A DNA stretch of 32,000 nt from Candidatus Heimdallarchaeota archaeon (lineage in GTDB: Archaea > Asgardarchaeota > Heimdallarchaeia > Heimdallarchaeales > Kariarchaeaceae): the NCBI GenBank assembly GCA_030149205.1, contig JASBSB010000004.1, positions 180,001-212,000 on the forward strand, read 5' to 3'. Shown here piece by piece: positions 11,689 through 32,000 of this stretch. The notes under the pieces were generated by a model. That model was not told the origin of the DNA, did not search any database, and saw only the letters and a program-made list of their open reading frames with translations. Every line of letters starts with the position of its first letter. Position 1 is the stretch's first letter. The position numbers and the translations under genes were made by a program.

Positions 11689-12249
11689 GTGAACTCTTCT
11701 GAAAATTCAGAAAATTTAACTGCAAAAGCGGTTATAATTGGTGATCCTGCTGTTGGTAAAACTTCAATAAAAAAAAGATATTTTGGGACTGGATTTCATG
11801 AAGAATATATAATGACCCTTGGGGCAGGTTTTTCCGTTAAGAAAATTCATCTCGATGATAATCGAGTATTAAAATTAAATGTATGGGATCTTGCTGGTCA
11901 GGAATCTTTCAATCAAGTTCGACCGGTATTTTATAAAGGAACCTCTGCACTTATTTTGGTCTTTGACCTTACAAACCAAGATTCATTTCAAAACTTAGAA
12001 AAATGGGTTACAGAATTTTGGAGTCACTCCGGAAGTCCAAACAATATCCCAGTAATACTTGTTGGAAACAAGTTAGATCTTCTTTCAAAGGAACCTAAAA
12101 TGGAGGATTATAAAGAATTTTGGAAAAAATTTCAATCGATTCATCCTCAATTTTCAGGTGGAAAGCTCTCGATTTTTACCTCTGCCAAAACTGGAGTAAA
12201 TATTAATGAAATGTTTGATAAACTAAAATCTATGATGAAATTAGATTAG
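11689..12249 (+). CDS. Rab-like small GTPase (Ras superfamily)
   Basis: G1 GDPAVGKT, G2 YIMT, G3 WDLAGQE, G4 NKLD and G5 SAK are all present. RabF-like segments: LGAGF, KLNVW, FYKGT, LVFDLT. No C-terminal cysteines. GTG start. Confidence 0.95.
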   Translation: MNSSENSENLTAKAVIIGDPAVGKTSIKKRYFGTGFHEEYIMTLGAGFSVKKIHLDDNRVLKLNVWDLAGQESFNQVRPVFYKGTSALILVFDLTNQDSFQNLEKWVTEFWSHSGSPNNIPVILVGNKLDLLSKEPKMEDYKEFWKKFQSIHPQFSGGKLSIFTSAKTGVNINEMFDKLKSMMKLD

Positions 12250-13004
12250 TCGTTTTTTATTGATCTTTTGTAAATTTCTCGTTTTGGTATTTTTTTCAAA
12301 GAGCTCCATAAGTGAATGACTGACTGGCCATCAACATAAATTAAATTATTGTCTTCCGCATAGGATATAGCCTTCTCAATGCTTAAGGCTTTATTAGTCT
12401 CAGAATCAAGCATTTCACAGACGGTGATTGACATTGAATTCTTAGTTAGATCACATAAAGCAAGACCAAGTTCTGTGTGTCCAAGTCGAGAACGTAACAA
12501 CCCATTTGCACCTCGAAGCAGGGGGACATGCCCTGGAATTCTAAATGTTTCACCCCAAAGATCCATTAAGTCTATTTTTGAGACAGGTTCACTCTGAAAC
12601 AATCGAGTTATCCTTCCGACCTCAGATATAGTTAGAGACCTATCTATGTCCGTAATTCCGGTGAATGATTTTGTATGGTTGATACTAACAGAGAAAGATG
12701 ACTTTGCACCATAAGGTAGTTGATGGTTATTCATCCTTCTTATAGTTGGAAAAAGTGAGGAAATTCTTTTGTAAATAATATCCATAAATGGAAGTTCTAA
12801 AACCCTGCATAATTCATCGGGGATTGCACAACAAATTAGGCCCCCTGCATCATTACGCATCTGTGCTACAATTTGAGGAGATACATGTTCAGAAGGCATG
12901 ATCATGTCAATCTCTCCCTCCCTATTGTCATCGTCATAAAGAAGTATGGGTTTTCCCTGTGCCCAAGAATCTTTTATTCCTTTTAATGATTCAAAAATAT
13001 TCAT
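12246..13004 (-). CDS. ribB: 3,4-dihydroxy-2-butanone 4-phosphate synthase, archaeal type
   Basis: YDDDNREGEIDM, MRNDAGGLIC, YGAKSSFSVSINH, TGITDIDRSLTI, FRIPGHV, RLGHTE and CEML. The stop codon overlaps the stop of the convergent GTPase gene. Confidence 0.93.
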   Translation of the reverse strand: MNIFESLKGIKDSWAQGKPILLYDDDNREGEIDMIMPSEHVSPQIVAQMRNDAGGLICCAIPDELCRVLELPFMDIIYKRISSLFPTIRRMNNHQLPYGAKSSFSVSINHTKSFTGITDIDRSLTISEVGRITRLFQSEPVSKIDLMDLWGETFRIPGHVPLLRGANGLLRSRLGHTELGLALCDLTKNSMSITVCEMLDSETNKALSIEKAISYAEDNNLIYVDGQSVIHLWSSLKKIPKREIYKRSIKND

Positions 13005-13168: not shown

Positions 13169-14161
13169 ATGGTATTTAGAGAGGAACAAAAAGATATATT
13201 CATCAATAATTTTTTAGCATACATGGAGATTGAAAAAGGAGCGTCAAAAAATACCATCCGTGGCTATGCACATGACTTATACTCTTTAACTGAATTTCTG
13301 TATGCCCATAAGTATATACATTCAAAAGAAATCATAGAGTGGGGAAACATTTCAATTTTTCATTTAAGAGGATTTTTAGCTTATCTCCATACGCAGAAAG
13401 CAAACAAAGCTTCTAGTATTCATAGAAGAGTTTGTTCACTTAAAGGGTTCTTTAAATTTTTAGAGGCTAACAATGCCATTGAGAGTGACCCTGCTAAGGA
13501 TCTTTCATATCCTAAAAGAGCAAAATCACTACCCAAATTTCTTCCAACAACAGATATGCAGTCCCTATTGGATATAGAAGCAAAAACGAAACTTCACAAA
13601 ACAATTATGGAGGTACTATACTCCACTGGAGCGAGATGTAATGAAGTTCGAAATATGAATTTAGTTGATATAGAATTTGGTTTCAAAGATTTCATTAATG
13701 ATACTGGAGAGACAATTAAGGTGTCAACCGGACAAATAATTATACGTGGAGGAAAAGGAGGAAAAGATAGGTTAGTACTTTTGACCCCTAGGGCTGCAAA
13801 TATCCTTAAAGATTACATTAATACAGAAAGAAATTTGATGATCCAGAGAGCTAAGGATAAATTTGGGTCTGTAAATGCCGATACAGAAGAAGCTCTCTTT
13901 CTAAGCAATAGAGGTAAAAGAGTAGCAAATAGGACAATCCAACACTTCATATCAAAGCTCTCAAAAGAAGCAGGAGTTAGACACACCACCCCACACATGA
14001 TTCGGCACTCATTTGCATCTCATTTAGTAATGAATAAAACAAACATCAGAGCTATCCAACAATTATTGGGTCATGCATCATTAGATACTACCCAAATATA
14101 TGCAAACATAACACCAGACTATCTAAGATCAGAATTTGATGGTAATTTACCAATAAAGTGA
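13169..14161 (+). CDS. xerA: Xer-family tyrosine recombinase (XerA-like)
   Basis: N-terminal SKNTIRGYAHDL and SSIHRRVCSLKGFFKFL. Catalytic set: R (STGARCNE), K (GKGGKDR), HxxR (PHMIRHSFASHL), H (LLGHASL) and Y (TTQIY). Confidence 0.9.
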   Translation: MVFREEQKDIFINNFLAYMEIEKGASKNTIRGYAHDLYSLTEFLYAHKYIHSKEIIEWGNISIFHLRGFLAYLHTQKANKASSIHRRVCSLKGFFKFLEANNAIESDPAKDLSYPKRAKSLPKFLPTTDMQSLLDIEAKTKLHKTIMEVLYSTGARCNEVRNMNLVDIEFGFKDFINDTGETIKVSTGQIIIRGGKGGKDRLVLLTPRAANILKDYINTERNLMIQRAKDKFGSVNADTEEALFLSNRGKRVANRTIQHFISKLSKEAGVRHTTPHMIRHSFASHLVMNKTNIRAIQQLLGHASLDTTQIYANITPDYLRSEFDGNLPIK

Positions 14162-19682: not shown

Positions 19683-20768
19683 TTATTCGGATTCTTTGTT
19701 GATGCTGTCTTTGATCTCTTCCAATGTTTTCCCAATGTTATATAGAACCATCAATATTTGATCAAAGCCTTCAATTTGAATATTTTGGAATGATTTTTGT
19801 AATTCTAGATTCCTGGCTTCGTGTAATGCATTTGATAAAAATGCACGTAAAATTCTTGTTGTAACATCCTGAACATCAAAATTATTCATATCCAAATCGT
19901 GAGAAATTTCTGAGACATCAACCTCATCCAGAAATTCATTGATGAGTTTTTGTGAAGTCTTATCAAGAATTTCTTCTTCACTAGAATCGTCCATGAAGTC
20001 ATCATTTTCTTCTAATTGAACCACCCCTATTTTGGGATCGTTACCTGCTTCTATTGGAGGTTTGATTTTGTGTACATCTGTTTCAACAGGATCCTCTTGA
20101 TTTACCAACCACCTAACATACCTTATAAACAGCTCCATATTTGGTTTATATTTCATCCCCACACTTGAATCATTAAGTATTTCATGGGTTCCTATAGCAA
20201 TTAATTTTCCAGACATATTATCTCCACTCCTTACGGCAATCGCTTGAATACCTCCCATAGTTGTGGAAGTGCTTGTCAATAAGATCCGTTGTGGACTGGC
20301 AATAAATGAAACAGTATTAGAAAAGGGATACTCCTCCTCACCAGAATCATTGGGAACTGTCTCTGCTTTCATACCTTTTATGACATTAGGGTCTTCATAG
20401 AAGTTATTTCTTGGGTCAAAAAGCACAGAATCTGTAGTTTGAATTCCAAAATGGTTCAAGATTGAATTTAGGTTTGTTTTGTTTTTAGTGTCTCCACCTG
20501 CACGGCATAACACCAAAAGCGATCCCCCTTCTCTAACATAAGAAATTAATGCATTCACCTCATAAGGTTGATATTTTTTCCCTAAAGGTGAAAGCAAAAT
20601 AAAGAGGTTGTATTTCTCTAAAGTCCTGATTTTAAGGGGGTCCTCTGTTTCAACTGATAACAGATACCCTTTTTGAGTTAATACAGACATCATTAATCTG
20701 TAATATGAGGAAATAAGAGATTCTTGACCTTTAGTTGCATCAATCCCAACAAAAATTGGACGGGTCAC
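19683..20768 (-). CDS. Cytoplasmic GIFT (GldG/IFT52/DUF4350-like) domain protein with acidic, helical C-terminus
   Basis: FILLSP...YEVNALISYVREGGSLLVLCRAGGD...TNLNSILNHFGI and GKLIAIG...D......N...F....RWL fit the GIFT fold pattern. No signal peptide or TM segment. GTG start. Confidence 0.7.
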   Translation of the reverse strand: MTRPIFVGIDATKGQESLISSYYRLMMSVLTQKGYLLSVETEDPLKIRTLEKYNLFILLSPLGKKYQPYEVNALISYVREGGSLLVLCRAGGDTKNKTNLNSILNHFGIQTTDSVLFDPRNNFYEDPNVIKGMKAETVPNDSGEEEYPFSNTVSFIASPQRILLTSTSTTMGGIQAIAVRSGDNMSGKLIAIGTHEILNDSSVGMKYKPNMELFIRYVRWLVNQEDPVETDVHKIKPPIEAGNDPKIGVVQLEENDDFMDDSSEEEILDKTSQKLINEFLDEVDVSEISHDLDMNNFDVQDVTTRILRAFLSNALHEARNLELQKSFQNIQIEGFDQILMVLYNIGKTLEEIKDSINKESE

Positions 20769-21485: not shown

Positions 21486-21956
21486 GTGATAATGTATAAA
21501 ATTGGTATTGCTGATACCACATTTGCAAGGTATGATATGGCAAAAGAGGTTATTAAAACACTAGACAAGTTTTATGGACAGGTGACTTATCAGAGGTACG
21601 TAGTGCCAGGAATTAAAGACCTCCCCGTTGCCTCTTTTATATTGTTCGAGAAATATAACTGTGATCTTGTAATTGCTTTAGGGATGCCTGGCCCAAAGGC
21701 ATATGATAAGGCATCTGCACAAATAGCCAGTGAGGGGTTGATGATGTGTCAACTTAAGTTTGGAAAACATATCCTTGAAGTATTTGTACATGAAGATGAG
21801 GGAAGTACAGATTATGAATTAAAACAGATCATGCAAGATAGATCCATTAAGCATACCTTCAATGCAGTATACTTATTAACAAACCCTCAATGGCTTGTAG
21901 ATAACGCGGGAAGAGGGAAACGACAAGGATTCACTGATGCAAAGGCAATAGAATAA
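21486..21956 (+). CDS. ribC: Riboflavin synthase, archaeal type (lumazine-synthase fold)
   Basis: GIADTTFARYDM, VPGIKDLPVA, ALGMPG, EVFVHEDE and GRGKRQGF. Start probably ATG 21492. Confidence 0.95.
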   Translation: MIMYKIGIADTTFARYDMAKEVIKTLDKFYGQVTYQRYVVPGIKDLPVASFILFEKYNCDLVIALGMPGPKAYDKASAQIASEGLMMCQLKFGKHILEVFVHEDEGSTDYELKQIMQDRSIKHTFNAVYLLTNPQWLVDNAGRGKRQGFTDAKAIE

Positions 21957-21980: not shown

Positions 21981-23228
21981 TTATAACCTTAGAACACCAG
22001 CTCTTGGACCCTGCAACAATATATCTTCATAAAACAAATCTAAGTTTGAACCCAATTGTAACTTGGGGAAGAAAAATTTTGTTGCAGTAAAATCATTTCC
22101 TTCAACTAACCCCCATCTACTGAATCCGGAAACTTTCGCTCCACCTAAACTTGCCATGGTTAAGATGTCTCTTGCAGAAAATCCACTTGCATTATCATAA
22201 AAGGCTTTCATTTCTTTCCAAAGAGATATTGAATGCATCATAGCATTATCTGTTCCTAAGCCTATTAATTGAGGGGGTAATCCACTTTCAGCCAGAGCAT
22301 TAAACTCATGAAATTCAGTTTGAGTAAAGGCATTTGATCTCAGACAGATAACTAAACCAACCTCATTTTGTTTCATCTGTTTAAAATCCTCTTCTGTAGC
22401 CAAATTACCATGAATTATAGCTGTAGGATGAAGGTTATTAATAGCCCAATGAACATCGCTTTCCCCCGTTTCTTTCTCCCAGGCTTTAGTTAACTCAGGA
22501 TCTTCCCCTGCATGAATATGAAAAATTCTATGAACTGAATCAGCTGCTTTTCTAATGTTTAATAACACCTCCAAATCATAGGAACGAACATCTCGAATTC
22601 CTAAGCCTGAGAATGTTAATAGCTCTCCGACCTGTTCAAAGTTATCAGGTCTTCCTAAAATTTGAATTGAAGGGACAAAGTTATCAATTACGGTATTTAT
22701 GTCAAACCCATTCTCCCCTACTGTACTATCCCCCAATAGTTCTAATCTGTGTCGATATTTTTCCCATAAACTTGAAACATATGGTGGTGCCTTTCCCAAC
22801 ACCAATTTTTTTGCAAGTTGTACATGATCAAGGTATGCTAGGGATCCATTTAAACCGCCTTCTCTAAAATCGTTGTATGCACGAATTCCAGTTATATTGA
22901 CCTCACGATTGGTGTTCAGTAGATTGACTTTCAATTTTTTTGCATCAAGTTTGTTGAGATACATCATTTTTTTACCCAACGGGCCTATCGTCTCATTTAG
23001 ATTGCCAGAAGGAACCCCTCTTAATCCGTAATCTGCAGCATGTACGTGAGAGTCATAAAACCCTGGGATTAAAATTGACTGCTCTTCAATATCAAACGAA
23101 AGTTCTTGAATATCAATGATTTCCATTTTAGGGTTAATTACCACTTCAACATTTTCTAACACCTCCAAGCTCTTTCCAGTTAAAGCATACTTTGCTTGGA
23201 CATGATAGGTTTGATCGGAGTACAGCAT
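21981..23228 (-). CDS. Metal-dependent amidohydrolase-superfamily enzyme, deaminase-type
   Basis: PGFYDSHVH (HxH), DFREGG, HIHAGE (HxxE), IIHGN and LGTDN. Lies 17 bp downstream of ribH on the same strand. Confidence 0.88.
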   Translation of the reverse strand: MLYSDQTYHVQAKYALTGKSLEVLENVEVVINPKMEIIDIQELSFDIEEQSILIPGFYDSHVHAADYGLRGVPSGNLNETIGPLGKKMMYLNKLDAKKLKVNLLNTNREVNITGIRAYNDFREGGLNGSLAYLDHVQLAKKLVLGKAPPYVSSLWEKYRHRLELLGDSTVGENGFDINTVIDNFVPSIQILGRPDNFEQVGELLTFSGLGIRDVRSYDLEVLLNIRKAADSVHRIFHIHAGEDPELTKAWEKETGESDVHWAINNLHPTAIIHGNLATEEDFKQMKQNEVGLVICLRSNAFTQTEFHEFNALAESGLPPQLIGLGTDNAMMHSISLWKEMKAFYDNASGFSARDILTMASLGGAKVSGFSRWGLVEGNDFTATKFFFPKLQLGSNLDLFYEDILLQGPRAGVLRL

Positions 23229-23245: not shown

Positions 23246-23671
23246 TCATTCTAACTTTTTTAGTTCTTTGAGAAGCTTAACCGCTGCTTCTACTGCTTTA
23301 GTTGCAAAACTCTCAATTCTAGCTTTTGATTGCATCATAGTTAACCCTGGGCCAGAGATACCCAAAGCTACTGGTTTGTTAAATTCCAGGGATAAATCAG
23401 TCACTTTCCTTGCAACCTGTGCGGCGATTAATTCATCATGGTTCGATTCACCTTTAATGATGGTGCCTAAGGTAACGACAGCATCAACAGAATCTAATGA
23501 TAACAGTTTTTTCAAAACAATTGGCATATCATATGCACCAGGGACATGAGCTATCTTCGTAATATTGCACCCTAAAAACTCAGCATGATCCTTAGCACGC
23601 ATCTCCATGAGATAAGTATGGTCATAATTGGTCTGACTAACCAAGAAGGCTAAATTATAAGATTCTTTCAT
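23246..23671 (-). CDS. ribH: 6,7-dimethyl-8-ribityllumazine synthase, archaeal type
   Basis: HAEFLG, VPGAYDMP, DAVVTLG.IIKGESNHDE and KPVALGISGPG..Q...R, closely following methanogen-type RibH. Confidence 0.93.
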   Translation of the reverse strand: MKESYNLAFLVSQTNYDHTYLMEMRAKDHAEFLGCNITKIAHVPGAYDMPIVLKKLLSLDSVDAVVTLGTIIKGESNHDELIAAQVARKVTDLSLEFNKPVALGISGPGLTMMQSKARIESFATKAVEAAVKLLKELKKLE

Positions 23672-23723
23672 CTAAAAACTCAATTTCACATAAATTATAA
23701 AAGATTCACTTAAAGATACAAAA

Positions 23724-23756: not shown

Positions 23757-24728
23757 TTGAAAAAAGATACAGACACATTGATAATTCGAGCCAGAAATTT
23801 GTCTAAAACCTATTTTTCTGTAACTAGAAAAGTAAATGCTGTTTCTAACCTTAATTTAGATATTGAGAAAGGAGAGATTGTCGGATTATTAGGACCAAAT
23901 GGAGCTGGAAAAACAACTTCAATAAATTTGTTGTCTACCATAATTAAGCCAACTGAAGGAGGAGCAATTGTAAATGGTCGCGATATTCTTTTAGATGATC
24001 TAGAAGTTCGTAGATCTATTGGAATCGTTCCCGATAATCCAGGTTTTTATAAACGACTTACAGCGTCTCAAAATCTAAATTTTTATGGTGCTATTTATGG
24101 TACAGCTAAAGAACTGATTGATGAACGCAAAGAAAAATATCTCAAACAATTTGACCTGCAAGAGGTAGAAAACCAAAAAGTTGGTGGTTTTTCAAAAGGT
24201 ATGAAACAAAAGCTTTCTATTGTCAAAGCACTAATAAATGATCCAGAAATTTTAATCTTTGATGAACCGTGGAGTGGGTTATCCCCTGAGGCGCAAAGAG
24301 AACTGAGGGATTTCCTTCTTGGACTAACTTCAGGTAAAGAAAGAACTGTGATAATCACAACTCATAATTTAAGAATGGCTGAAGAGCTAATTACACGAGC
24401 TGTAATTATCAACCATGGTAGACTTCTCTTGGATAAATCAATAGATGAGTTGAGAAGAGATGGAAAAGCAACCTTAACAATACAACTTGAGTTGAGCAAC
24501 TCTGATCAAAACCAATCAATTATCTCTAAATATGGTGAGGTACTTGATCATGAGGTCAAAGAAAATCGGTCTTATTTTACCTTGAAAATGAAGGACGAAG
24601 AAATTATACCCAACTTGATTGAAACTCTTGTCCATAATAAAATCAAGGTATATAATGTTGCAAGAAGATCAAGTTCTTTGGAAGATGTATACTTTGAAGT
24701 AATTGGTAACCAGGAGGAGTCTGAATAA
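23757..24728 (+). CDS. ABC-2 type exporter ATP-binding subunit
   Basis: GPNGAGKT, FSKGMKQK, ILIFDEP and TTHN, with a C-terminal accessory domain ending SLEDVYF. TTG start. Confidence 0.95.
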   Translation: MKKDTDTLIIRARNLSKTYFSVTRKVNAVSNLNLDIEKGEIVGLLGPNGAGKTTSINLLSTIIKPTEGGAIVNGRDILLDDLEVRRSIGIVPDNPGFYKRLTASQNLNFYGAIYGTAKELIDERKEKYLKQFDLQEVENQKVGGFSKGMKQKLSIVKALINDPEILIFDEPWSGLSPEAQRELRDFLLGLTSGKERTVIITTHNLRMAEELITRAVIINHGRLLLDKSIDELRRDGKATLTIQLELSNSDQNQSIISKYGEVLDHEVKENRSYFTLKMKDEEIIPNLIETLVHNKIKVYNVARRSSSLEDVYFEVIGNQEESE

Positions 24729-25534
24729 TGAATATACAATGGCAAGGTGTACTAGCAATAGTTAAAAAAGACATTCTTGATATGTCCCAATCAAAATATC
24801 TTCTCTTTAGTTTGTTCTTGGTTCCATTGTTGTTTGGGGTACTCTTCCCAGTCATATATTTTTCCCCATACTTATCTGGAGGTTTCCCCTCATCCTCAAA
24901 CCAAAGTTCAATTAATTTTCCGCTAACATCAAATTGGTCTCAGCTAACACCAAACCAACAATCATTTATTCTTCTTGTCGAAATAACCTACTTCTTAATA
25001 TTATTAATGCCAGTAATAATTCCAACCTATCTAGCTGCTGACAGTTTTGTAGGAGAGAAGGATAAAGGAACCTCAGTAAATCTTGTGGCAGCCCCCCTCA
25101 CTGATACAGAAATCTATTTGGGAAAATTATTAGGAGTGGCAATCCCCACAATTACAGCAAGTTTAGCGGGGGATCTTATGTTTTTTGCTTTGACATCTTT
25201 TTATTCTTTGCAGATCCTTGGATTTAATTACGTGCTTAGTTTTAGATTCTTTTATACTATCTTGGTTCTAGCCCCTTTAATGACTTTGGCAGTAATCAAT
25301 CTAATGATTTGGGTATCCACAAAAACAAACTCAACAAGAGATGCTCAGCAATATGGGGGAATTTTAACATTGATAGCTTTTCCCTTTATTGGAACGATCA
25401 TAGCCGTCCCATTGATTTTTGGAGTCGTAGCTCAGGTGATTTTCCTAACTTTATTGTTGATTCTTATAAATTACTTTGCCACTATAATTGGATTAAGGTT
25501 ATTCAATCGAGAAAAATGGATTAGTATGGTCTAA
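24728..25534 (+). CDS. ABC-2 type exporter permease
   Basis: About 6 TM segments and SFVGEKDKGT...APLT..EIYLGK. The start overlaps the ATPase stop (TAATG); AGGAGG at 24712-24717. Confidence 0.9.
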   Translation: MNIQWQGVLAIVKKDILDMSQSKYLLFSLFLVPLLFGVLFPVIYFSPYLSGGFPSSSNQSSINFPLTSNWSQLTPNQQSFILLVEITYFLILLMPVIIPTYLAADSFVGEKDKGTSVNLVAAPLTDTEIYLGKLLGVAIPTITASLAGDLMFFALTSFYSLQILGFNYVLSFRFFYTILVLAPLMTLAVINLMIWVSTKTNSTRDAQQYGGILTLIAFPFIGTIIAVPLIFGVVAQVIFLTLLLILINYFATIIGLRLFNREKWISMV

Positions 25535-25616: not shown

Positions 25617-26303
25617 GTGTTGTTAAGAGAGGAACTTCTGCTTAATAAGTTAGAACCTAAACAATTCACATTCTATATCAATGTTGCATGTTCCTTGGAT
25701 ACAATAATCGGCAGTCCTTACAAACAGGAGATAATATCAAATATTCATGATTGGAAAGTCGTTCATAACCTTAGAAATGAATCCGTTGCAATTGTGGTTG
25801 GAAGTAACACAATCTTGATTGATAATCCTACTCTGCTTACAAAAGACCAGTACATAGAAAACGAAGAAGTTCATCACCCAGTTCGTGTTGTAATTGACAG
25901 AAGAGGAAGACTTACTGGACGTGAAAACATATTTCAATCGTTAGATAGAGCTCCTCTAGTAATAATTGGAAATAATGACAAAAATAATTTGGACATTGAA
26001 CATCAGAATCTCTATTGTATTGATGTACAAGACACAATACAGAGCACTATCATTCTTGGATTGAAAAAATTTGGGATAAATTCAGGTTTCATAATGATTG
26101 AAGGAGGAGCAACAACAATAACAAATTTTCTTAAAGAAGGTAATATTGCTCGTTTGCGAATTTTCAGATCCACAAAGTTCCTTATTAAAGGGATAAGATT
26201 ATTCCAAGAAGACATCCCCATAAATTTTAAATTGTTAAGCGTTAAAAAATTGGGAGATGGCATTCAGGAGGTCTATCAACCAGTATTGGAATATTCTCCT
26301 TGA
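25617..26303 (+). CDS. arfC: Stand-alone RibD C-terminal domain reductase (ArfC/Rib7-like pyrimidine reductase)
   Basis: NVACSLD, ISN..DW..VHNLR, AIVVGSNTILIDNPTL, PVRVVID, MIEGGAT and KKLGDGI. No N-terminal HAE/PCxxC deaminase domain. Some motifs are divergent. GTG start. Confidence 0.8.
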   Translation: MLLREELLLNKLEPKQFTFYINVACSLDTIIGSPYKQEIISNIHDWKVVHNLRNESVAIVVGSNTILIDNPTLLTKDQYIENEEVHHPVRVVIDRRGRLTGRENIFQSLDRAPLVIIGNNDKNNLDIEHQNLYCIDVQDTIQSTIILGLKKFGINSGFIMIEGGATTITNFLKEGNIARLRIFRSTKFLIKGIRLFQEDIPINFKLLSVKKLGDGIQEVYQPVLEYSP

Positions 26304-26378: not shown

Positions 26379-27143
26379 CTATGGTAATGATTTTTTGAAT
26401 GCGTATTGTGAAAACAACAATCCAAGAATTGCAAAGGCAAATAATACAACAAAGTCAATCCATAGAGCAATATCAGATCCAGGGAAGGTAGATGTCTTGT
26501 ACACCAAGTCTCTGATTCCTGAAATAGCATATGTGGTCGGATTTGCATAAGCAACAATTTGCAACCATGTTGGAAGAATTTTAATTGGATACAATGCATT
26601 GCTTGCAAATAATAGAGGTAAGTTAAGCAATAAAATCATTGTATGAAATCCACCTGGACTATCTGTCAATGATGCAAAAGCAAGAGCGATACCCGAAAAA
26701 CCAATTGTAAATAAGAGTGCAGCCGCTAATCCACCAATTAAATTTATGGGATTATTGCTCAGCGTTGCTCCCATTAAGAGGCTAACAACAAAAATTATAA
26801 TCCCCTGAATCAGACCTTTGGTAACCGTACTTGCAACGTTCCCACCTAAAATACTCAATTTTGGAATGGGAGCCACTAAGTACTCACGCACCATTCCTCT
26901 AAGCCTTTCTGTCTGCCACACAGCTCCACCGGCTGTCGCACCTCCTAAGGCACTTAGAGCTATTATTCCAGGGGCCATAAATCCAATGTATTCACCAGTA
27001 CCCGATGTGGTAACAAGACTAGCCATCCCAACGCCAAACAAAACAAGCCAAAGGATAGGTTGGATTACAAATCCACTTACCTCTGCGCTCTGCATCTTTA
27101 TCATATGTTTTTTCCAAAGTGTATATATTCCATTTGCTAACAT
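26379..27143 (-). CDS. ABC-2 permease (DrrB-like)
   Basis: QPILWLVLFG, FMAPGII, ERLRGMVREYLVAPI, SNALYPI..LPTWLQ..AYANPTTYAI. AGGAGG 7 nt upstream. Confidence 0.93.
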   Translation of the reverse strand: MLANGIYTLWKKHMIKMQSAEVSGFVIQPILWLVLFGVGMASLVTTSGTGEYIGFMAPGIIALSALGGATAGGAVWQTERLRGMVREYLVAPIPKLSILGGNVASTVTKGLIQGIIIFVVSLLMGATLSNNPINLIGGLAAALLFTIGFSGIALAFASLTDSPGGFHTMILLLNLPLLFASNALYPIKILPTWLQIVAYANPTTYAISGIRDLVYKTSTFPGSDIALWIDFVVLFAFAILGLLFSQYAFKKSLP

Positions 27144-27154
27144 AATAATTCCTC

Positions 27155-28099
27155 CTATTCTCTTAGTTCCCTCCCAGTGTATTTGAAAAATACCTCTCCT
27201 AAACTGGGCTTTTTAATATTCAGATTACTTATGCTGTAACCCTGTTGAATCACCGACTGGATCAGGGGAACCACCCTTGTGTCACTGTTATCAACTCCTA
27301 CTTGAATCCATCCATCATGTGAGGTCACCTGATCAACGAAATCTAGAGCCTTTAGTTTCTTAACTAAACTGGCTGAATCTCCAGATATTTCAAGTTTAAT
27401 AATATCTGAACCCAAGCTTTCAATCAATTCTTCAACAGTTCCTTGAGTGATAATTTTTCCATGATCAATTATTTCAACTTTGTCTGCTAGACTCTGTGCT
27501 TCGTCCATATAGTGGGTGGTTAGAATGATTGTCATTCCATATTCCTTTTTTAGTTTGATAATGTAATCCCAGATCTTTGCTCTGGTTTGTACATCAACAC
27601 CCAAAGTAGGTTCATCCAGAAACAATATTTCTGGTTTTGTTAGTAAGGCTCTTCCTAGTTCTAGACGTCTTTTCATTCCACCAGAATATGATTTAACCTT
27701 CTTATTACGAACTTCCTGAAGTTCTATGAGATCAAAAATTTCATCAACAGCTGATTTAAGCTCTGATCCTTTCATTCCATAAAGTTTGCCATGGATCTCA
27801 AGCACCTGTTGTCCCGTTAATTGATCATCAATTGCCATTTCTTGAAAGGTTACCCCAATTTTCTTTCGGATATTTTTAGAATCTTTTGTAAGGTCATAAC
27901 CCAATATTTTTGCTTGACCTGAGCTTGGAGTGATCAGAGTGACTAACATCGATATTGTTGTTGTTTTTCCAGCACCATTTGGACCCAGAAGAGCAAGAAC
28001 CGTGTTTTTTTCAACCTGTAAATCTATACCATCTACAGCATAGATCTTACCATCATATGTTTTTTTCAAATCTTTAGTTTCTATTGCTAATGTGTTCAT
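27155..28099 (-). CDS. ABC exporter ATPase (DrrA-like)
   Basis: GPNGAGKT, YSGGMKRRLE, ILFLDEPTLGVD, TTHYMDEA and C-terminal KPSLGEVF..YTG. AGGAGG 8 nt upstream. Confidence 0.95.
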   Translation of the reverse strand: MNTLAIETKDLKKTYDGKIYAVDGIDLQVEKNTVLALLGPNGAGKTTTISMLVTLITPSSGQAKILGYDLTKDSKNIRKKIGVTFQEMAIDDQLTGQQVLEIHGKLYGMKGSELKSAVDEIFDLIELQEVRNKKVKSYSGGMKRRLELGRALLTKPEILFLDEPTLGVDVQTRAKIWDYIIKLKKEYGMTIILTTHYMDEAQSLADKVEIIDHGKIITQGTVEELIESLGSDIIKLEISGDSASLVKKLKALDFVDQVTSHDGWIQVGVDNSDTRVVPLIQSVIQQGYSISNLNIKKPSLGEVFFKYTGRELRE

Positions 28100-28652
28100 T
28101 CATGTTTCCTCCTTTTTGGTAAAGGTATGTAAGTTCATTGTTCATGATTTTCTCAATTAAGTCTGACAGCCAATTTAAATCTGTCTGAGTGTGAAGTATC
28201 TGATACCGCGTAATAATATCAAAGGCATTGTTATGAGTTGGAGATTGTCTCAGTTTCTGAACCTTTTCTTCAATTTTTTTTCGTTTCTCTTGAAGTAGGT
28301 TTACAGCGGTTTCCTTCGGTATCTCATTTAGAAAGGCTAAAGGAACCAAATCCATATTCATATTAACCTGATAGCTTTGTAGCTCTTTAGCTAACAACTG
28401 CAGAAAATAAGAGTCTCCTTGCTCAGTGATCGTAAAAACCTTTCTTATTGGTCTATTTCCTTCTCTCTCTTCTGTAGAAGAAATGTAACCCTTTTCCTCA
28501 AGTCTTGCTAGTATTCTATACGCAGTTGGTTTTGTGATATGAACTGAAGTTCCTAGATGAGAATCCAACATTTCGTTCAATTGATAGCCATGTAAATCCA
28601 TGTTTTTTAAGAACCCAAGCAAGATTAATTCTCTATTCAATACTTTCACCAT
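28074..28652 (-). CDS. PadR-family transcriptional regulator
   Basis: LILLGFL...LHGYQL, Y.ILARLEEKGYI, RPIRKVFTITEQG and a C-terminal helical dimerisation region. Overlaps the downstream ATPase gene by 26 bp. Confidence 0.92.
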   Translation of the reverse strand: MVKVLNRELILLGFLKNMDLHGYQLNEMLDSHLGTSVHITKPTAYRILARLEEKGYISSTEEREGNRPIRKVFTITEQGDSYFLQLLAKELQSYQVNMNMDLVPLAFLNEIPKETAVNLLQEKRKKIEEKVQKLRQSPTHNNAFDIITRYQILHTQTDLNWLSDLIEKIMNNELTYLYQKGGNMNEHISNRN

Positions 28653-30119: not shown

Positions 30120-30764
30120 ATGAATTTGGAAAAGCAAAAAGCGAATCGAGAAGAAGAGCCTTGGAAGGGCCCAACAGGTGTTTTATTTTTTCTCAATGTT
30201 CTTTTCTATGTTTTTGCATACGGTTTCTCAGTCTTATTAAAATTTGAGGGAAACCCAGTTTATATAGACATTTTTTCAATGCCAAGCACTTCAGTCGTGG
30301 TTTTTGGGCTATCATTCCTTACTTTATCAGATGGCTGGTTTTGGCAAATTATTACTAATATATTTCTACATGCAAATTTGGCACATCTGTTTGGAAATAT
30401 GCTATTTTTGTTTATCTATGGATTTGCTCTTGAAGAGAGAGGATTTTCCGATAATGAAATTTATCTTGGTTTTATTCTAACAGGTATTCTTTCATCCCTC
30501 GTATCAATGTTTTTTTTACCCTATACAAGTTTCTCACTGGGTGCATCAGGAGCAATCTTTGGATTGCTTGGAATGATTATAGCCTGGGCAAAGGTTCATA
30601 GAAGTGACATTTGGAAGCGACAGGTTCTACTTGGAATTCTATTGTTTGTCTTTTCTTCAGCGCAACCAAACGTGAATATTTTTGCACATTTATTTGGTTT
30701 AATTTTTGGTTATCTTATCTATTTTACACCCTTATTCAACAAATCTCTTTCTGTACCTCAATAG
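30120..30764 (+). CDS. Rhomboid intramembrane serine protease
   Basis: WQIITNIFLHANLAHLFGNM, G..LE, GASGAIFG (catalytic Ser) and AHLFG (catalytic His). Confidence 0.95.
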   Translation: MNLEKQKANREEEPWKGPTGVLFFLNVLFYVFAYGFSVLLKFEGNPVYIDIFSMPSTSVVVFGLSFLTLSDGWFWQIITNIFLHANLAHLFGNMLFLFIYGFALEERGFSDNEIYLGFILTGILSSLVSMFFLPYTSFSLGASGAIFGLLGMIIAWAKVHRSDIWKRQVLLGILLFVFSSAQPNVNIFAHLFGLIFGYLIYFTPLFNKSLSVPQ

Positions 30765-32000
30765 TTTGTTCTGAATATACTGACCCTCATTTTTAACCCA
30801 TAGGACCCAAGATAGAATTAAGAATCCAAGGAAAAGAAAACTGAAATTCGTGATTTGATCTTGACCAGTGTAATACTCAAGGTTTGCAAAGATATCAATT
30901 TGAGTGCTTGATACTATTTTCCCATTTTGTAGAATCGGAATCACCAAGGTATAAGCCCCATAAAAATCAAATCTAAACTTATGAAAGAATTCATTGTTGG
31001 TCCTGGTAATATTGAACTGTGTGATAAAGTAAGGGGCTTCCTTGTGGATTAAGAAGGCTTGCGTACTTTGAGGTAAATTCAATTGTGTTTTATTACTGAA
31101 TTGAATTCCTTGTAAATTAAAACGAATATCTTCATACATTTTTACAGTTAACTGATTAGTCCCCGTAATAAGTTTCCCATTCAAAAGCATGTTTGCTATC
31201 GGAACTTGGTCTGAAATCAGCCAATTGACAAGACTGGACGCCATACGATTATAGAAGATAGCATCAGTTTGCGTGCTTCCATAATTTAGCAATTGGCTTG
31301 TGAAGGGTAAAACTGATGAGAATACTGCAACTCGCCCTTTACCTGAATTAGCCGCAGCTGCAAGTGTACTCTGTCCAAATGTAGCCAATTTAATCACGTC
31401 TTTCGATAGTAAATCAAGCTGAGGACCAAAACTAAGAATTGAGCCCTGTGCTGGTATAATTTTTTGAAATTTGTTAATTTGTGCATTAACAGGAACTTTT
31501 GTAAAGTTATAATCTATTCTACCATCATTATTGTTGTCAGTGATTATTCTTATGGGAACATTTTTGTTATTTATATTCATGTTTAAAATTTGATTGACTG
31601 ATTGAACTGCAAATGGTCCTACTGGTTGGTTTTCATTAACAAAGGTGCCTCCGTTAGCTAAAATGAGGAGACTCCCGCCCTGTATGTCAACAAATTTGCG
31701 GATAATTTCGACTTCAACAGGAGAGTATGCATAGTTCGGGTCAGCAATAATAAGTAAATTGACACCATTCAATGTTGATTTAGTAATAGTTTCATGATTC
31801 ACGGCCACACTAAACCCATTTAGTCTTAAAAGATTTCCGAACTCGTTGAATTTTCCCTGAGGTCCATTATTATAATAATATCCTGGTTGGTTAGCAGTCC
31901 CTTCTTTAGATACATCAAACAGAATTTTTCCCCTTTCAAATGTTGATGTGCTAAAATATGTTATATTCATAAATTTCATTTTTTGAGCTGTAGATGATTC
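30732..32000 (-). CDS. GIFT/DUF4350-like surface protein with C-terminal membrane anchor (5' end likely beyond right edge)
   Basis: The frame is open from 31979 to the window edge. ILFDVSK, ITKSTLNGVNLLIIADP, GGSLLILA and GKGRVAVFSS fit a GIFT fold. Several N-x-S/T sequons, a C-terminal TM segment (FSFLFLGFLILSWVLWV) and a basic tail. Confidence 0.7.
   Translation of the reverse strand, partial: ESSTAQKMKFMNITYFSTSTFERGKILFDVSKEGTANQPGYYYNNGPQGKFNEFGNLLRLNGFSVAVNHETITKSTLNGVNLLIIADPNYAYSPVEVEIIRKFVDIQGGSLLILANGGTFVNENQPVGPFAVQSVNQILNMNINNKNVPIRIITDNNNDGRIDYNFTKVPVNAQINKFQKIIPAQGSILSFGPQLDLLSKDVIKLATFGQSTLAAAANSGKGRVAVFSSVLPFTSQLLNYGSTQTDAIFYNRMASSLVNWLISDQVPIANMLLNGKLITGTNQLTVKMYEDIRFNLQGIQFSNKTQLNLPQSTQAFLIHKEAPYFITQFNITRTNNEFFHKFRFDFYGAYTLVIPILQNGKIVSSTQIDIFANLEYYTGQDQITNFSFLFLGFLILSWVLWVKNEGQYIQNKLLRYRKRFVE

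What the first reader, a model, noticed from the sequence alone, without database searches (positions are those of the whole stretch)
21981..23228. Candidate missing deaminase of archaeal riboflavin biosynthesis
Sequence: an amidohydrolase with HxH, H, D metal ligands and an HxxE motif (HIHAGE). It lies 17 bp behind ribH (likely co-transcribed) and ends 24 bp from the convergent ribC stop. The window's RibD homolog is reductase-only. Established: HxxE marks heteroaromatic-amine deaminases in this superfamily. The archaeal/fungal route needs a separate deaminase for 2,5-diamino-6-ribitylamino-4(3H)-pyrimidinone 5'-phosphate (Rib2 in fungi), and to my knowledge the archaeal enzyme is not firmly assigned. 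Inference: this enzyme fills that gap by non-orthologous displacement. It also seems to carry a roughly 40-aa insertion after DFREGG.
Basis: partly seen in the sequence, partly recalled or inferred. Interest (0 to 1): 0.8.

Follow-up and report, generated by a model that had tools for sequence, protein, structure and literature searches.

The report
Predicted archaeal riboflavin pyrimidine deaminase gene

Summary
Window 21981-23228 (-) encodes a 415-aa amidohydrolase with intact HxH, HxxE, H and D residues. It lies 17 bp behind ribH and 24 bp from the convergent ribC stop, and it carries a 42-45 aa insertion after DFREGG.

The genome (93.5% complete) has RibA, RibB, a reductase-only RibD homolog, RibH and RibC. 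I found no RibD/Rib2-type deaminase.

The protein belongs to the DFREGG amidohydrolase family that includes MJ0699 (Q58110). Some annotations already call this family "Pyrimidine deaminase archaeal predicted". Rodionova et al. 2017 cite a 2010 proposal of this archaeal deaminase, which they call "PyrD"; Pfeiffer et al. 2021 list it as still unconfirmed.

In 151 Asgard genomes:
- The family occurs in 64 of 66 genomes that have lumazine synthase or FO synthase CofH, and in 0 of 85 that have neither.
- All 64 also have the reductase, and in 55 it lies directly downstream.
- None of the 151 has a full RibD.
- The family persists in lineages that use GTP cyclohydrolase II, which argues against an ArfB-like role.

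The most likely function is deamination of 2,5-diamino-6-ribitylamino-4(3H)-pyrimidinone 5'-phosphate. This is a rediscovery, and this scan has noted the same family on other DNA several times. I found no published assay.

The parts
21981..23228 (-). Gene for the 415-aa DFREGG-type amidohydrolase (P0001), the predicted riboflavin-pathway pyrimidine deaminase
   Evidence: ORF. Pfam Amidohydro_1 5.5e-21. Best NCBIfam is NF005552 at 1.3e-40, next family 1e-7. It sits in one clade with MJ0699, apart from the five paralogs in its own genome.
23040..23048 (-). H61-x-H63, metal ligands from barrel strand 1
   Evidence: Translated. Invariant in 121 family members.
22854..22871 (-). DFREGG, the family signature at the end of barrel strand 3 (residues 120-125)
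   Evidence: Absent from the five paralogous amidohydrolases of the same genome.
22695..22820 (-). Genus-specific insertion, residues 137-178 (42 aa by the model, about 45 aa by alignment)
   Evidence: No counterpart outside genus g1. A shorter form of about 32 aa occurs in three genus relatives. pLDDT below 50.
22503..22514 (-). H239-A-G-E242 (HxxE): metal ligand plus the catalytic glutamate typical of amidohydrolase-fold deaminases
22410..22412 (-). H273, the catalytic histidine of barrel strand 6
   Evidence: Invariant. Translated.
22245..22256 (-). G-T-D327-N328, with the strand-8 aspartate metal ligand
   Evidence: G325, D327 and N328 are invariant. Translated.
23246..23671 (-). ribH (6,7-dimethyl-8-ribityllumazine synthase), 17 bp upstream on the same strand and probably co-transcribed
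   Evidence: TIGR00114 120.6 bits, over the cut-off. The ribH-amidohydrolase pair is conserved in genus relatives.
23694..23701 (-). TATA-like TTTATAAT, 22 nt before the ribH ATG; a candidate archaeal promoter for a ribH-amidohydrolase transcript (inferred)
   Evidence: Sequence read. There is no comparable box in the 17-nt spacer.
21486..21956 (+). ribC, archaeal-type riboflavin synthase, convergent; its stop is 24 bp from the amidohydrolase stop
   Evidence: TIGR01506 159.7 bits, over the cut-off. Spacer measured.
25617..26303 (+). Reductase-only RibD homolog (ArfC/Rib7 type) with Asn at the position of E. coli RibD Lys152
   Evidence: Pfam RibD_C 7.6e-21. No deaminase domain. N22 aligns with K152.
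12246..13004 (-). [quoted passage not shown]
   Evidence: PF00926 6.7e-43.

Best explanation
P0001 is a mononuclear metal-dependent aminohydrolase of the amidohydrolase superfamily (inferred from the fold and conserved residues). I read it as the pyrimidine deaminase of the pathway to 5-amino-6-ribitylaminouracil.

**Proposed pathway in this organism**
1. GTP cyclohydrolase II (RibA) makes 2,5-diamino-6-ribosylamino-4(3H)-pyrimidinone 5'-phosphate.
2. The stand-alone reductase (window 25617-26303) reduces the ribosyl side chain.
3. P0001 then hydrolyses the 2-amino group of 2,5-diamino-6-ribitylamino-4(3H)-pyrimidinone 5'-phosphate to give 5-amino-6-ribitylamino-2,4-pyrimidinedione 5'-phosphate. 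This is the job done by cytidine-deaminase-fold Rib2 in fungi.
4. After dephosphorylation, RibH and RibC (the flanking genes), with RibB, finish riboflavin.

**Proposed catalysis (inferred)**
H61, H63, H239 and D327 would hold the metal-bound water. E242 and H273 would shuttle protons, as in guanine, cytosine and isocytosine deaminases.

**Shown:** fold, conserved residues, family membership, gene linkage, the phyletic pattern, and that no other deaminase was found.
**Inferred:** the substrate, the order of the steps, and co-transcription with ribH.
For: **1. Catalytic kit and fold**
- The catalytic residues are intact and invariant across 121 relatives.
- The AlphaFold2 model has pLDDT 87.9 and pTM 0.87.
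- Its best PDB matches are all amino- or chloro-hydrolases acting on heteroaromatic rings. They include isocytosine deaminase Vcz and guanine deaminase, which remove the same 2-amino group from a 2-amino-4-oxopyrimidine ring.

**2. A pathway gap exists**
- The genome has RibA, RibB, the reductase, RibH and RibC.
- Its only cytidine-deaminase-fold proteins are a dCMP deaminase and a cytidine deaminase.
- None of 151 Asgard genomes has a full-length RibD.

**3. Gene linkage in three arrangements**
- ribH then the amidohydrolase, in this window and in genus relatives.
- The amidohydrolase then the reductase, same strand and adjacent, in 55 of 64 genomes. In the Heimdall contig of P0007 a convergent ribA follows.
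- ribH, arfA, amidohydrolase, reductase, for example G006:C1:368309-371256.

**4. Phyletic profile**
- The family is in 57 of 57 CofH+ genomes and 27 of 29 RibH+ genomes.
- It is in 64 of 66 genomes with either enzyme and 0 of 85 with neither.
- All 64 genomes with the family also carry the reductase.

**5. Independence from the entry route**
- 21 genomes with the family use RibA and show no ArfA. 17 use ArfA.
- The function is therefore a step common to both routes.

**6. Order of steps**
- The reductase has Asn where E. coli RibD has Lys152.
- PMC3631187 reports Lys for enzymes that take the deaminated substrate, Thr in fungal enzymes and Asn in archaeal ones; it groups the fungal and archaeal reductases as acting on the non-deaminated substrate.

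**7. Other deaminase jobs are covered**
- Separate paralogs resemble 5'-deoxyadenosine and MTA/SAH-type deaminases.

**8. Orthology to MJ0699**
- MJ0699 (P0335) finds this gene as its clear best hit in the genome: 2.6e-19 against 1.9e-5 for the next.
Against: - I found no enzyme assay or genetic test for any member of the family.
- P0001 is a divergent member. It shares 25% identity with MJ0699. Its 139.5 bits against NF005552 is far below the equivalog cut-off of 294. The branch uniting the whole family has only 91/88 support.
- The 42-45 aa insertion has unknown effect.
- In several euryarchaeal members the gene lies next to Usp, CBS and ProRS genes rather than rib genes.
- The genomes compared are related, so the phyletic counts overstate independence.
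- The profile and linkage would equally fit another step common to both routes, such as the unassigned phosphatase. Only the deaminase-type residues argue against that.
- The assembly is 93.5% complete, so a deaminase in the missing part cannot be excluded.
Confidence: 0.75

Rival explanations
1. Same pathway, bacterial order. The enzyme deaminates the ribosyl intermediate 2,5-diamino-6-ribosylamino-4(3H)-pyrimidinone 5'-phosphate (EC 3.5.4.26) before the reductase acts.
For: The amidohydrolase gene usually precedes the reductase gene in the operon. With RibA, its product would be directly available as substrate. No biochemical data fix the order in Asgard archaea.
Against: The reductase has Asn, not Lys, at the E. 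coli RibD K152 position. PMC3631187 ties Lys to recognition of the deaminated substrate and Asn or Thr to the non-deaminated one. PMC5397151 and PMC3631187 report that archaea, as described for M. jannaschii, reduce first. Gene order does not fix reaction order.
Confidence: 0.1
2. It performs another hydrolytic step of the same pathway. Either it replaces ArfB (formamide hydrolase after GTP cyclohydrolase III), or it is the unassigned 5-amino-6-ribitylaminouracil 5'-phosphate phosphatase.
For: In four Asgard families the gene lies between arfA and the reductase. The linkage and the phyletic profile fit any step on the way to 5-amino-6-ribitylaminouracil.
Against: This genome and 20 other genomes with the family use GTP cyclohydrolase II and show no ArfA, so they have no formamide intermediate to hydrolyse. 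The invariant HxH, HxxE, H and D residues and the nearest structures are those of deaminases, not phosphatases. If it were the phosphatase, the deaminase step would be left with no candidate at all.
Confidence: 0.06
3. It is an unrelated salvage deaminase acting on a purine, nucleoside, pterin or similar substrate, and its position among rib genes is coincidental.
For: The nearest solved structures act on nucleobases and nucleosides. Some euryarchaeal members are not next to rib genes. One public annotation calls a relative '5'-deoxyadenosine deaminase'.
Against: Adjacency to the reductase in 55 of 64 genomes. Three different rib-linked arrangements. Presence in 64 of 66 genomes against 0 of 85. 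The family-specific motifs DFREGG and K87 are absent from the nucleoside-type paralogs that the same genome also has.
Confidence: 0.05

Closest known systems
MJ0699 (UniProt Q58110) / HVO_2483 family. This is the 'PyrD' candidate of Rodionova et al. 2017 (PMC5397151, citing a 2010 proposal), the 'RIB2 candidate' of Pfeiffer et al. 2021 (PMC8305020), NCBIfam NF005552 (PRK07213 'chlorohydrolase'), and the annotation 'Pyrimidine deaminase archaeal predicted'.
   Same: Same protein family. It is the best NCBIfam hit by 33 orders of magnitude. DFREGG/DFRENG, K87 and all catalytic residues are shared. MJ0699's best hit in this genome is this gene. They share a clade that excludes the paralogs. The same rib-gene linkage was used for the published prediction.
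   Different: Only 25% identical to MJ0699 and below the NF005552 equivalog cut-off (139.5 against 294 bits). It belongs to a long-branched Heimdall-type subclade (100/100 support). It carries a genus-specific 42-45 aa insertion. It follows ribH instead of preceding the reductase. It works downstream of GTP cyclohydrolase II rather than ArfA/ArfB. No member of the family has been assayed.
Fungal Rib2 deaminase domain and the bacterial RibD N-terminal deaminase (EC 3.5.4.26, cytidine-deaminase fold, Pfam PF00383)
   Same: Same predicted reaction: hydrolytic removal of the 2-amino group of the diaminopyrimidinone intermediate. Like Rib2, it would act after the reductase.
   Different: Unrelated fold and catalytic machinery: a zinc site in a cytidine-deaminase fold against a TIM-barrel amidohydrolase. 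The window's genome has no such deaminase assignable to riboflavin, and no full RibD was found in 151 Asgard genomes.
cog0402-type amidohydrolase deaminases with solved structures: isocytosine deaminase Vcz / 8-oxoguanine deaminase (7ww2, 8is4), guanine deaminase (2uz9, 2i9u), MTA/SAH deaminase TM0936 (1p1m), atrazine chlorohydrolases
   Same: Same fold and the same HxH, HxxE, H, D catalytic set. TM-scores 0.64-0.72. Profile matches up to 7.8e-27. Guanine and isocytosine deaminases attack the same 2-amino-4-oxopyrimidine moiety.
   Different: 12-17% identity. Sequence similarity is limited to the C-terminal half of the barrel. The N-terminal half carries family-specific motifs (D66, K87, DFREGG, R193). 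The proteins are shorter (about 350-380 aa against 420-480). The predicted substrate is a phosphorylated ribityl-pyrimidine.

Membership tests
DFREGG amidohydrolase family (MJ0699 / HVO_2483 / NF005552, predicted archaeal pyrimidine deaminase) | Sequence membership: the best family model is NF005552, and the gene groups with MJ0699 rather than with other amidohydrolases | tested here: met
   NF005552 E 1.3e-40, next family 1e-7. MJ0699 was identified as P0335 (Q58110). Its best hit in this genome is this gene, 2.6e-19 against 1.9e-5. One clade with 20 family members, apart from 5 paralogs of the same genome, support 91/88.
DFREGG amidohydrolase family (MJ0699 / HVO_2483 / NF005552, predicted archaeal pyrimidine deaminase) | NCBIfam equivalog-level score (at least 294 bits) | tested here: not met
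   139.5 bits. The cut-off is met by Methanococcales-type and some Njord/Jord members, for example P0082 at 582.6 bits. Many clear family members also fall below it, so the model is narrower than the family.
DFREGG amidohydrolase family (MJ0699 / HVO_2483 / NF005552, predicted archaeal pyrimidine deaminase) | Family signature residues: D66, K87, [DE]FRE[GN]G, G128, R193, R297, N299, N328 | tested here: met
   All are present in P0001. D66, K87, G128 and N328 are invariant among 121 members; D120, F121, R122, E123, G125, R193, R297 and N299 are at least 90% conserved. The motif is absent from the genome's five paralogs.
DFREGG amidohydrolase family (MJ0699 / HVO_2483 / NF005552, predicted archaeal pyrimidine deaminase) | Genomic association with riboflavin/FO genes, the basis of the published prediction | tested here: met
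   Here it sits between ribH and ribC. In 55 of 64 Asgard genomes it lies next to the reductase. Present in 64 of 66 against 0 of 85 genomes.
DFREGG amidohydrolase family (MJ0699 / HVO_2483 / NF005552, predicted archaeal pyrimidine deaminase) | Deaminase activity on the riboflavin pyrimidine intermediate | not testable with these tools
   No assay found for any member. PMC8305020 states that experimental confirmation is required.
Amidohydrolase-superfamily deaminases (cog0402 type, mononuclear) | HxH (strand 1), H plus E in HxxE (strand 5), H (strand 6), D (strand 8), in a TIM barrel with an N/C-terminal beta-sandwich | tested here: met
   H61, H63, H239, E242, H273 and D327 are invariant. The model has pLDDT 87.9. 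The 50 listed Foldseek matches are all amidohydrolase-superfamily structures; the named ones are amino-, imino- or chlorohydrolases, most acting on heteroaromatic rings.
RibD / Rib2 deaminase (cytidine-deaminase fold, EC 3.5.4.26) | PF00383 cytidine/dCMP deaminase zinc-binding domain | tested here: not met
   P0001 has no such domain. The genome's two PF00383 proteins are ComEB-type dCMP deaminase and cytidine deaminase. P0001 would be an analogue, not a member.

The most novel reading that the evidence does not exclude
In this Heimdallarchaeial genus the enzyme may have been re-wired for riboflavin-only duty. The gene has left the widespread amidohydrolase-reductase(-cofH) operon and now follows ribH. 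This genome shows no FO synthase CofH, although its genus relatives do. The protein has also gained a genus-specific 32-45 aa insertion of no predictable structure. The insertion could be a functional adaptation, for example a docking element toward lumazine synthase or another pathway partner, rather than a neutral surface loop. Nothing tested here supports binding.
Probability: 0.08. Interest if true: 0.45.

Novelty: new member of a known kind. Interest (0 to 1): 0.35.

Why it matters
The deaminase step is one of the enzyme gaps still open in archaeal riboflavin and F420 (FO) biosynthesis, alongside the phosphatase and, in haloarchaea, ArfB. If the MJ0699 family fills it, a TIM-barrel amidohydrolase has replaced a cytidine-deaminase-fold enzyme for the same reaction.

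This window does not open that question, because the family has been a published candidate since 2010 and 2017. It does sharpen it in three ways:
- Across Asgard archaea the family follows the need for 5-amino-6-ribitylaminouracil almost perfectly.
- It persists in lineages that use GTP cyclohydrolase II, which separates a deaminase role from an ArfB-like role.
- The partner reductase carries the residue reported for archaeal, reduce-first enzymes.

In practice, current annotations ("amidohydrolase family protein", "chlorohydrolase", "5'-deoxyadenosine deaminase") are uninformative or wrong for this family in Asgard genomes.

Tried and rejected
- **Related loci in species genomes.** The search with alignment A1 failed because no stretch was conserved enough. 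I used whole-genome searches instead.
- **Solved structures.** No member of the family has a solved structure.
- **Expression.** No RNA holder was listed for the stretch, so co-transcription with ribH could not be checked with reads. I did not lay reads.
- **Promoter and terminator scan.** The bacterial-type scan gave numbers no different from shuffled sequence and was not used. The archaeal TATA-like box was read by eye.
- **Link to HVO_2483 by synteny.** A haloarchaeal family member (P0024) lies near asd and cofD. In H. volcanii these are HVO_2487 and HVO_2479, which flank HVO_2483. The gene order differs, so this is only circumstantial. The firm link to the literature is through MJ0699 itself.
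- **Artefact check on the insertion.** I considered an intron, intein or frameshift. I rejected this because the frame is continuous and the insertion recurs at different lengths in three other genomes.
- **Complex prediction.** I ran none, because I make no binding claim.
- **Published assay.** Six full-text searches found no published assay.
Full report
**1. The observation**

The minus-strand ORF at 21981-23228 encodes 415 residues (P0001). It matches Pfam Amidohydro_1 at 5.5e-21.

- ribH at 23246-23671 (-), TIGR00114 120.6 bits, lies 17 bp upstream on the same strand.
- The archaeal riboflavin synthase ribC at 21486-21956 (+), TIGR01506 159.7 bits, converges on it with 24 bp between the stops.
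- The RibD homolog at 25617-26303 (+) is reductase-only.
- ribB lies 9 kb away at 12246-13004.

Translating the exact coordinates confirms H61-V-H63, DFREGG (120-125), H239-A-G-E242, H273 and D327.

The insertion is also real. Residues about 137-178 have no counterpart in family members outside this genus. Three genus relatives have a version of about 32 aa with little sequence conservation. It is the only internal part of the AlphaFold2 model with pLDDT below 50. The model as a whole has pLDDT 87.9 and pTM 0.87.

**2. The organism and its pathway**

The window lies in a 3.31-Mb, 12-contig assembly that is 93.5% complete. Earlier notes of this scan call it a Heimdallarchaeia (Kariarchaeaceae) Asgard archaeon. 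I did not test that label. It fits the closest named homolog, which is from Heimdallarchaeota.

The genome has GTP cyclohydrolase II, RibB, the reductase, RibH and RibC. I found no ArfA. Its only cytidine-deaminase-fold proteins are a ComEB-type dCMP deaminase and a tetrameric cytidine deaminase. The riboflavin route is therefore complete except for the deaminase and the phosphatase, which is generally unassigned.

**3. What family it is**

The best NCBIfam model is NF005552 (PRK07213, "chlorohydrolase") at 1.3e-40. The next family scores 1e-7. The 139.5-bit score is below the 294-bit equivalog cut-off.

An alignment of 23 and then 121 relatives defines a family. Its invariant residues are H61, H63, D66, K87, G128, H239, E242, H273, G325, D327 and N328. 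DFREGG, R193, R297 and N299 are nearly invariant. A full-library profile search finds 532 representative clusters (at 50% identity) at E up to 1e-30.

I then traced the family to the literature candidate:
- A Methanotorris member scores 582.6 bits on NF005552.
- Among its relatives is a cluster containing MJ0699 itself (Q58110, WP_010870204.1, "Uncharacterized protein MJ0699").
- A neighbouring cluster contains Methanocaldococcus lauensis proteins annotated "Pyrimidine deaminase archaeal predicted".

MJ0699 is 25% identical to P0001 (E 4e-21). Its best hit in this genome is this gene, 2.6e-19 against 1.9e-5 for the next.

In a maximum-likelihood tree all 21 DFREGG-type sequences group together (support 91/88). 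The genome's five other amidohydrolases fall outside. P0001 sits in a long-branched Heimdall-type subclade with 100/100 support. Those paralogs lack DFREGG. Four of them best match, below the equivalog cut-offs, models for 5'-deoxyadenosine deaminase, N-ethylammeline chlorohydrolase (TRZ/ATZ type), formimidoylglutamate deiminase and imidazolonepropionase.

**4. What was already published**

- Rodionova et al. 2017 (PMC5397151) state that orthologs of the RibD deaminase domain are apparently missing in Archaea. [quoted passage not shown]
- Pfeiffer et al. 2021 (PMC8305020) list HVO_2483, 34% identical to MJ0699, as that candidate and say it requires experimental confirmation.
- Six full-text searches found no assay.
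- This scan has also reached the same conclusion on other DNA, including Nitrosopumilus, Pyrodictium and another Asgard genome. I formed my reading before seeing those notes and re-tested its elements here.

**5. Independent comparative evidence**

I searched the same 151 genomes of the window's phylum six times.

(a) The family profile gives a bimodal result. 64 genomes have a family-level match, full-length at 204-381 bits, or in four draft genomes truncated or split pieces at 104-194 bits. Paralogs score 101 bits or less, and nearly all match only the C-terminal half.

(b) No genome has a full RibD. 67 have a reductase-only match, and these include all 64 genomes with the family.

(c) By my tally of the coordinates, the reductase lies directly downstream on the same strand in 55 of the 64. 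The exceptions are:
- the window's genus (three genomes, where the gene follows ribH);
- five genomes of families f20 and f25;
- one genome with a 4-kb gap.

A genome of the same family but another genus still has the amidohydrolase-reductase pair. The ribH position is therefore a recent rearrangement.

(d) Lumazine synthase is found in only 29 genomes. FO synthase CofH is found in 57. The family is present in 57 of 57 CofH+ genomes and 27 of 29 RibH+ genomes. It is present in 64 of 66 genomes with either enzyme and in none of the 85 with neither. It thus tracks the need for 5-amino-6-ribitylaminouracil, the shared precursor of riboflavin and of the F420 chromophore.

(e) In four families the order is ribH, arfA, amidohydrolase, reductase, for example G006:C1:368309-371256.

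(f) 21 genomes with the family (the Heimdall class, including this one) have RibA and no ArfA. 17 have ArfA.

These genomes are related, so the counts are not independent events. The three distinct gene arrangements are the more robust evidence.

Outside Asgard, some euryarchaeal members lie next to Usp, CBS and ProRS genes rather than rib genes.

**6. Mechanism**

The nearest solved structures have TM-scores of 0.64-0.72 and 12-17% identity. They are cog0402-type hydrolases that attack an exocyclic amino or chloro group on a heteroaromatic ring. Examples are isocytosine and 8-oxoguanine deaminase, guanine deaminase, MTA/SAH deaminase and atrazine chlorohydrolase.

By homology, H61, H63, H239 and D327 bind one metal ion with the attacking water. 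E242 and H273 are the proton shuttles.

The family-specific basic residues K87, R122, R193 and R297 lie in a loop after strand 1 or at or just past the C-terminal ends of predicted strands 3, 4 and 7 (secondary structure). In this fold that is the side where the substrate pocket lies. I infer that they hold the phosphate and ribityl tail. This is inference only, because I could not inspect coordinates.

The reductase has Asn where E. coli RibD has Lys152. PMC3631187 reports Lys in enzymes that take the deaminated substrate, Thr in fungi and Asn in archaea. I therefore predict reduction first and deamination of the ribityl intermediate second.

A TATA-like TTTATAAT lies 22 nt before the ribH ATG. 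The 17-nt spacer before the amidohydrolase has none, and it has an AGGGG that could serve as a ribosome-binding site. This suggests one ribH-amidohydrolase transcript. No RNA data were available to test it.

**7. Rivals**

- **An ArfB-like formamidase role.** It is disfavoured because the gene persists where GTP cyclohydrolase II makes the formamide step unnecessary.
- **A phosphatase role.** It fits the profile but not the deaminase-type catalytic set, and it would leave the deaminase step with no candidate.
- **An unrelated salvage deaminase.** It fits neither the linkage nor the 64-of-66 against 0-of-85 pattern.
- **The bacterial order of steps.** It cannot be excluded without an assay.

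**8. Verdict**

It is a rediscovery of a published but untested prediction.

Specific to this window:
- a divergent Heimdall-type copy;
- a genus-specific insertion;
- relocation behind ribH;
- a genome in which no CofH was found, so the enzyme would serve riboflavin alone here.

Novelty: a new member of a known (predicted) kind. Interest is moderate to low.

Noticed in passing
Other genomes of the phylum (handles G005, G012, G023, G027, G046 and others): Asgard families f10 (20 of 26 genomes) and f17 (3 of 3) carry GTP cyclohydrolase II. None of them shows lumazine synthase, the RibD_C reductase, the DFREGG amidohydrolase or CofH. Four f10 genomes have a RibD-N-like deaminase domain inside 359-540 aa ORFs. 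This is an orphan GCH II with no visible downstream pathway.
   Followed up: no
Other genomes of the phylum, mostly family f13: 26 of the 64 genomes that have the amidohydrolase, the reductase and usually CofH show neither RibA nor ArfA at E up to 1e-15. The GTP cyclohydrolase feeding their FO/riboflavin branch is not identified.
   Followed up: no
Own genome G000: No FO synthase CofH was found in this assembly (best hit E 7e-4), although both genus relatives have one about 8 kb from their ribH-amidohydrolase pair. A CofD-family gene is present at C7:237651-238433. This is either a loss of FO synthesis or a gap in the 93.5%-complete assembly.
   Followed up: partly
window 25617-26303 (+), and genus relatives G015, G036: The reductase of this genus is among the most divergent in the phylum: 64-77 bits on TIGR00326, against 85-124 in all other lineages but two (about 62). 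The usual SLDGK motif reads SLDTIIG in the window. Both pathway partners seem to evolve fast in this genus.
   Followed up: partly
window 23757-25534 (+): An ABC-2 type exporter pair (ATPase plus permease) lies between ribH and the reductase. The reductase starts 83 bp after the permease on the same strand, so it may be co-transcribed with a transporter. A second ABC-2 pair with a PadR regulator is at 26379-28652 (-).
   Followed up: no
window 11689-12249 (+), 19683-20768 (-), 30732-31979 (-), 13169-14161 (+): A Ras-family small GTPase abuts ribB. There are two proteins with an IFT52 GIFT domain. A tyrosine recombinase (phage-integrase family) lies next to ribB.
   Followed up: no
L015, L016, L017: In Methanonatronarchaeales-, haloarchaeon- and Methanomassiliicoccus-type contigs the family gene is followed by a universal stress protein gene, and in two of them then by CBS-domain and prolyl-tRNA synthetase genes. 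This neighbourhood is conserved, is not a rib neighbourhood, and has no obvious explanation.
   Followed up: no
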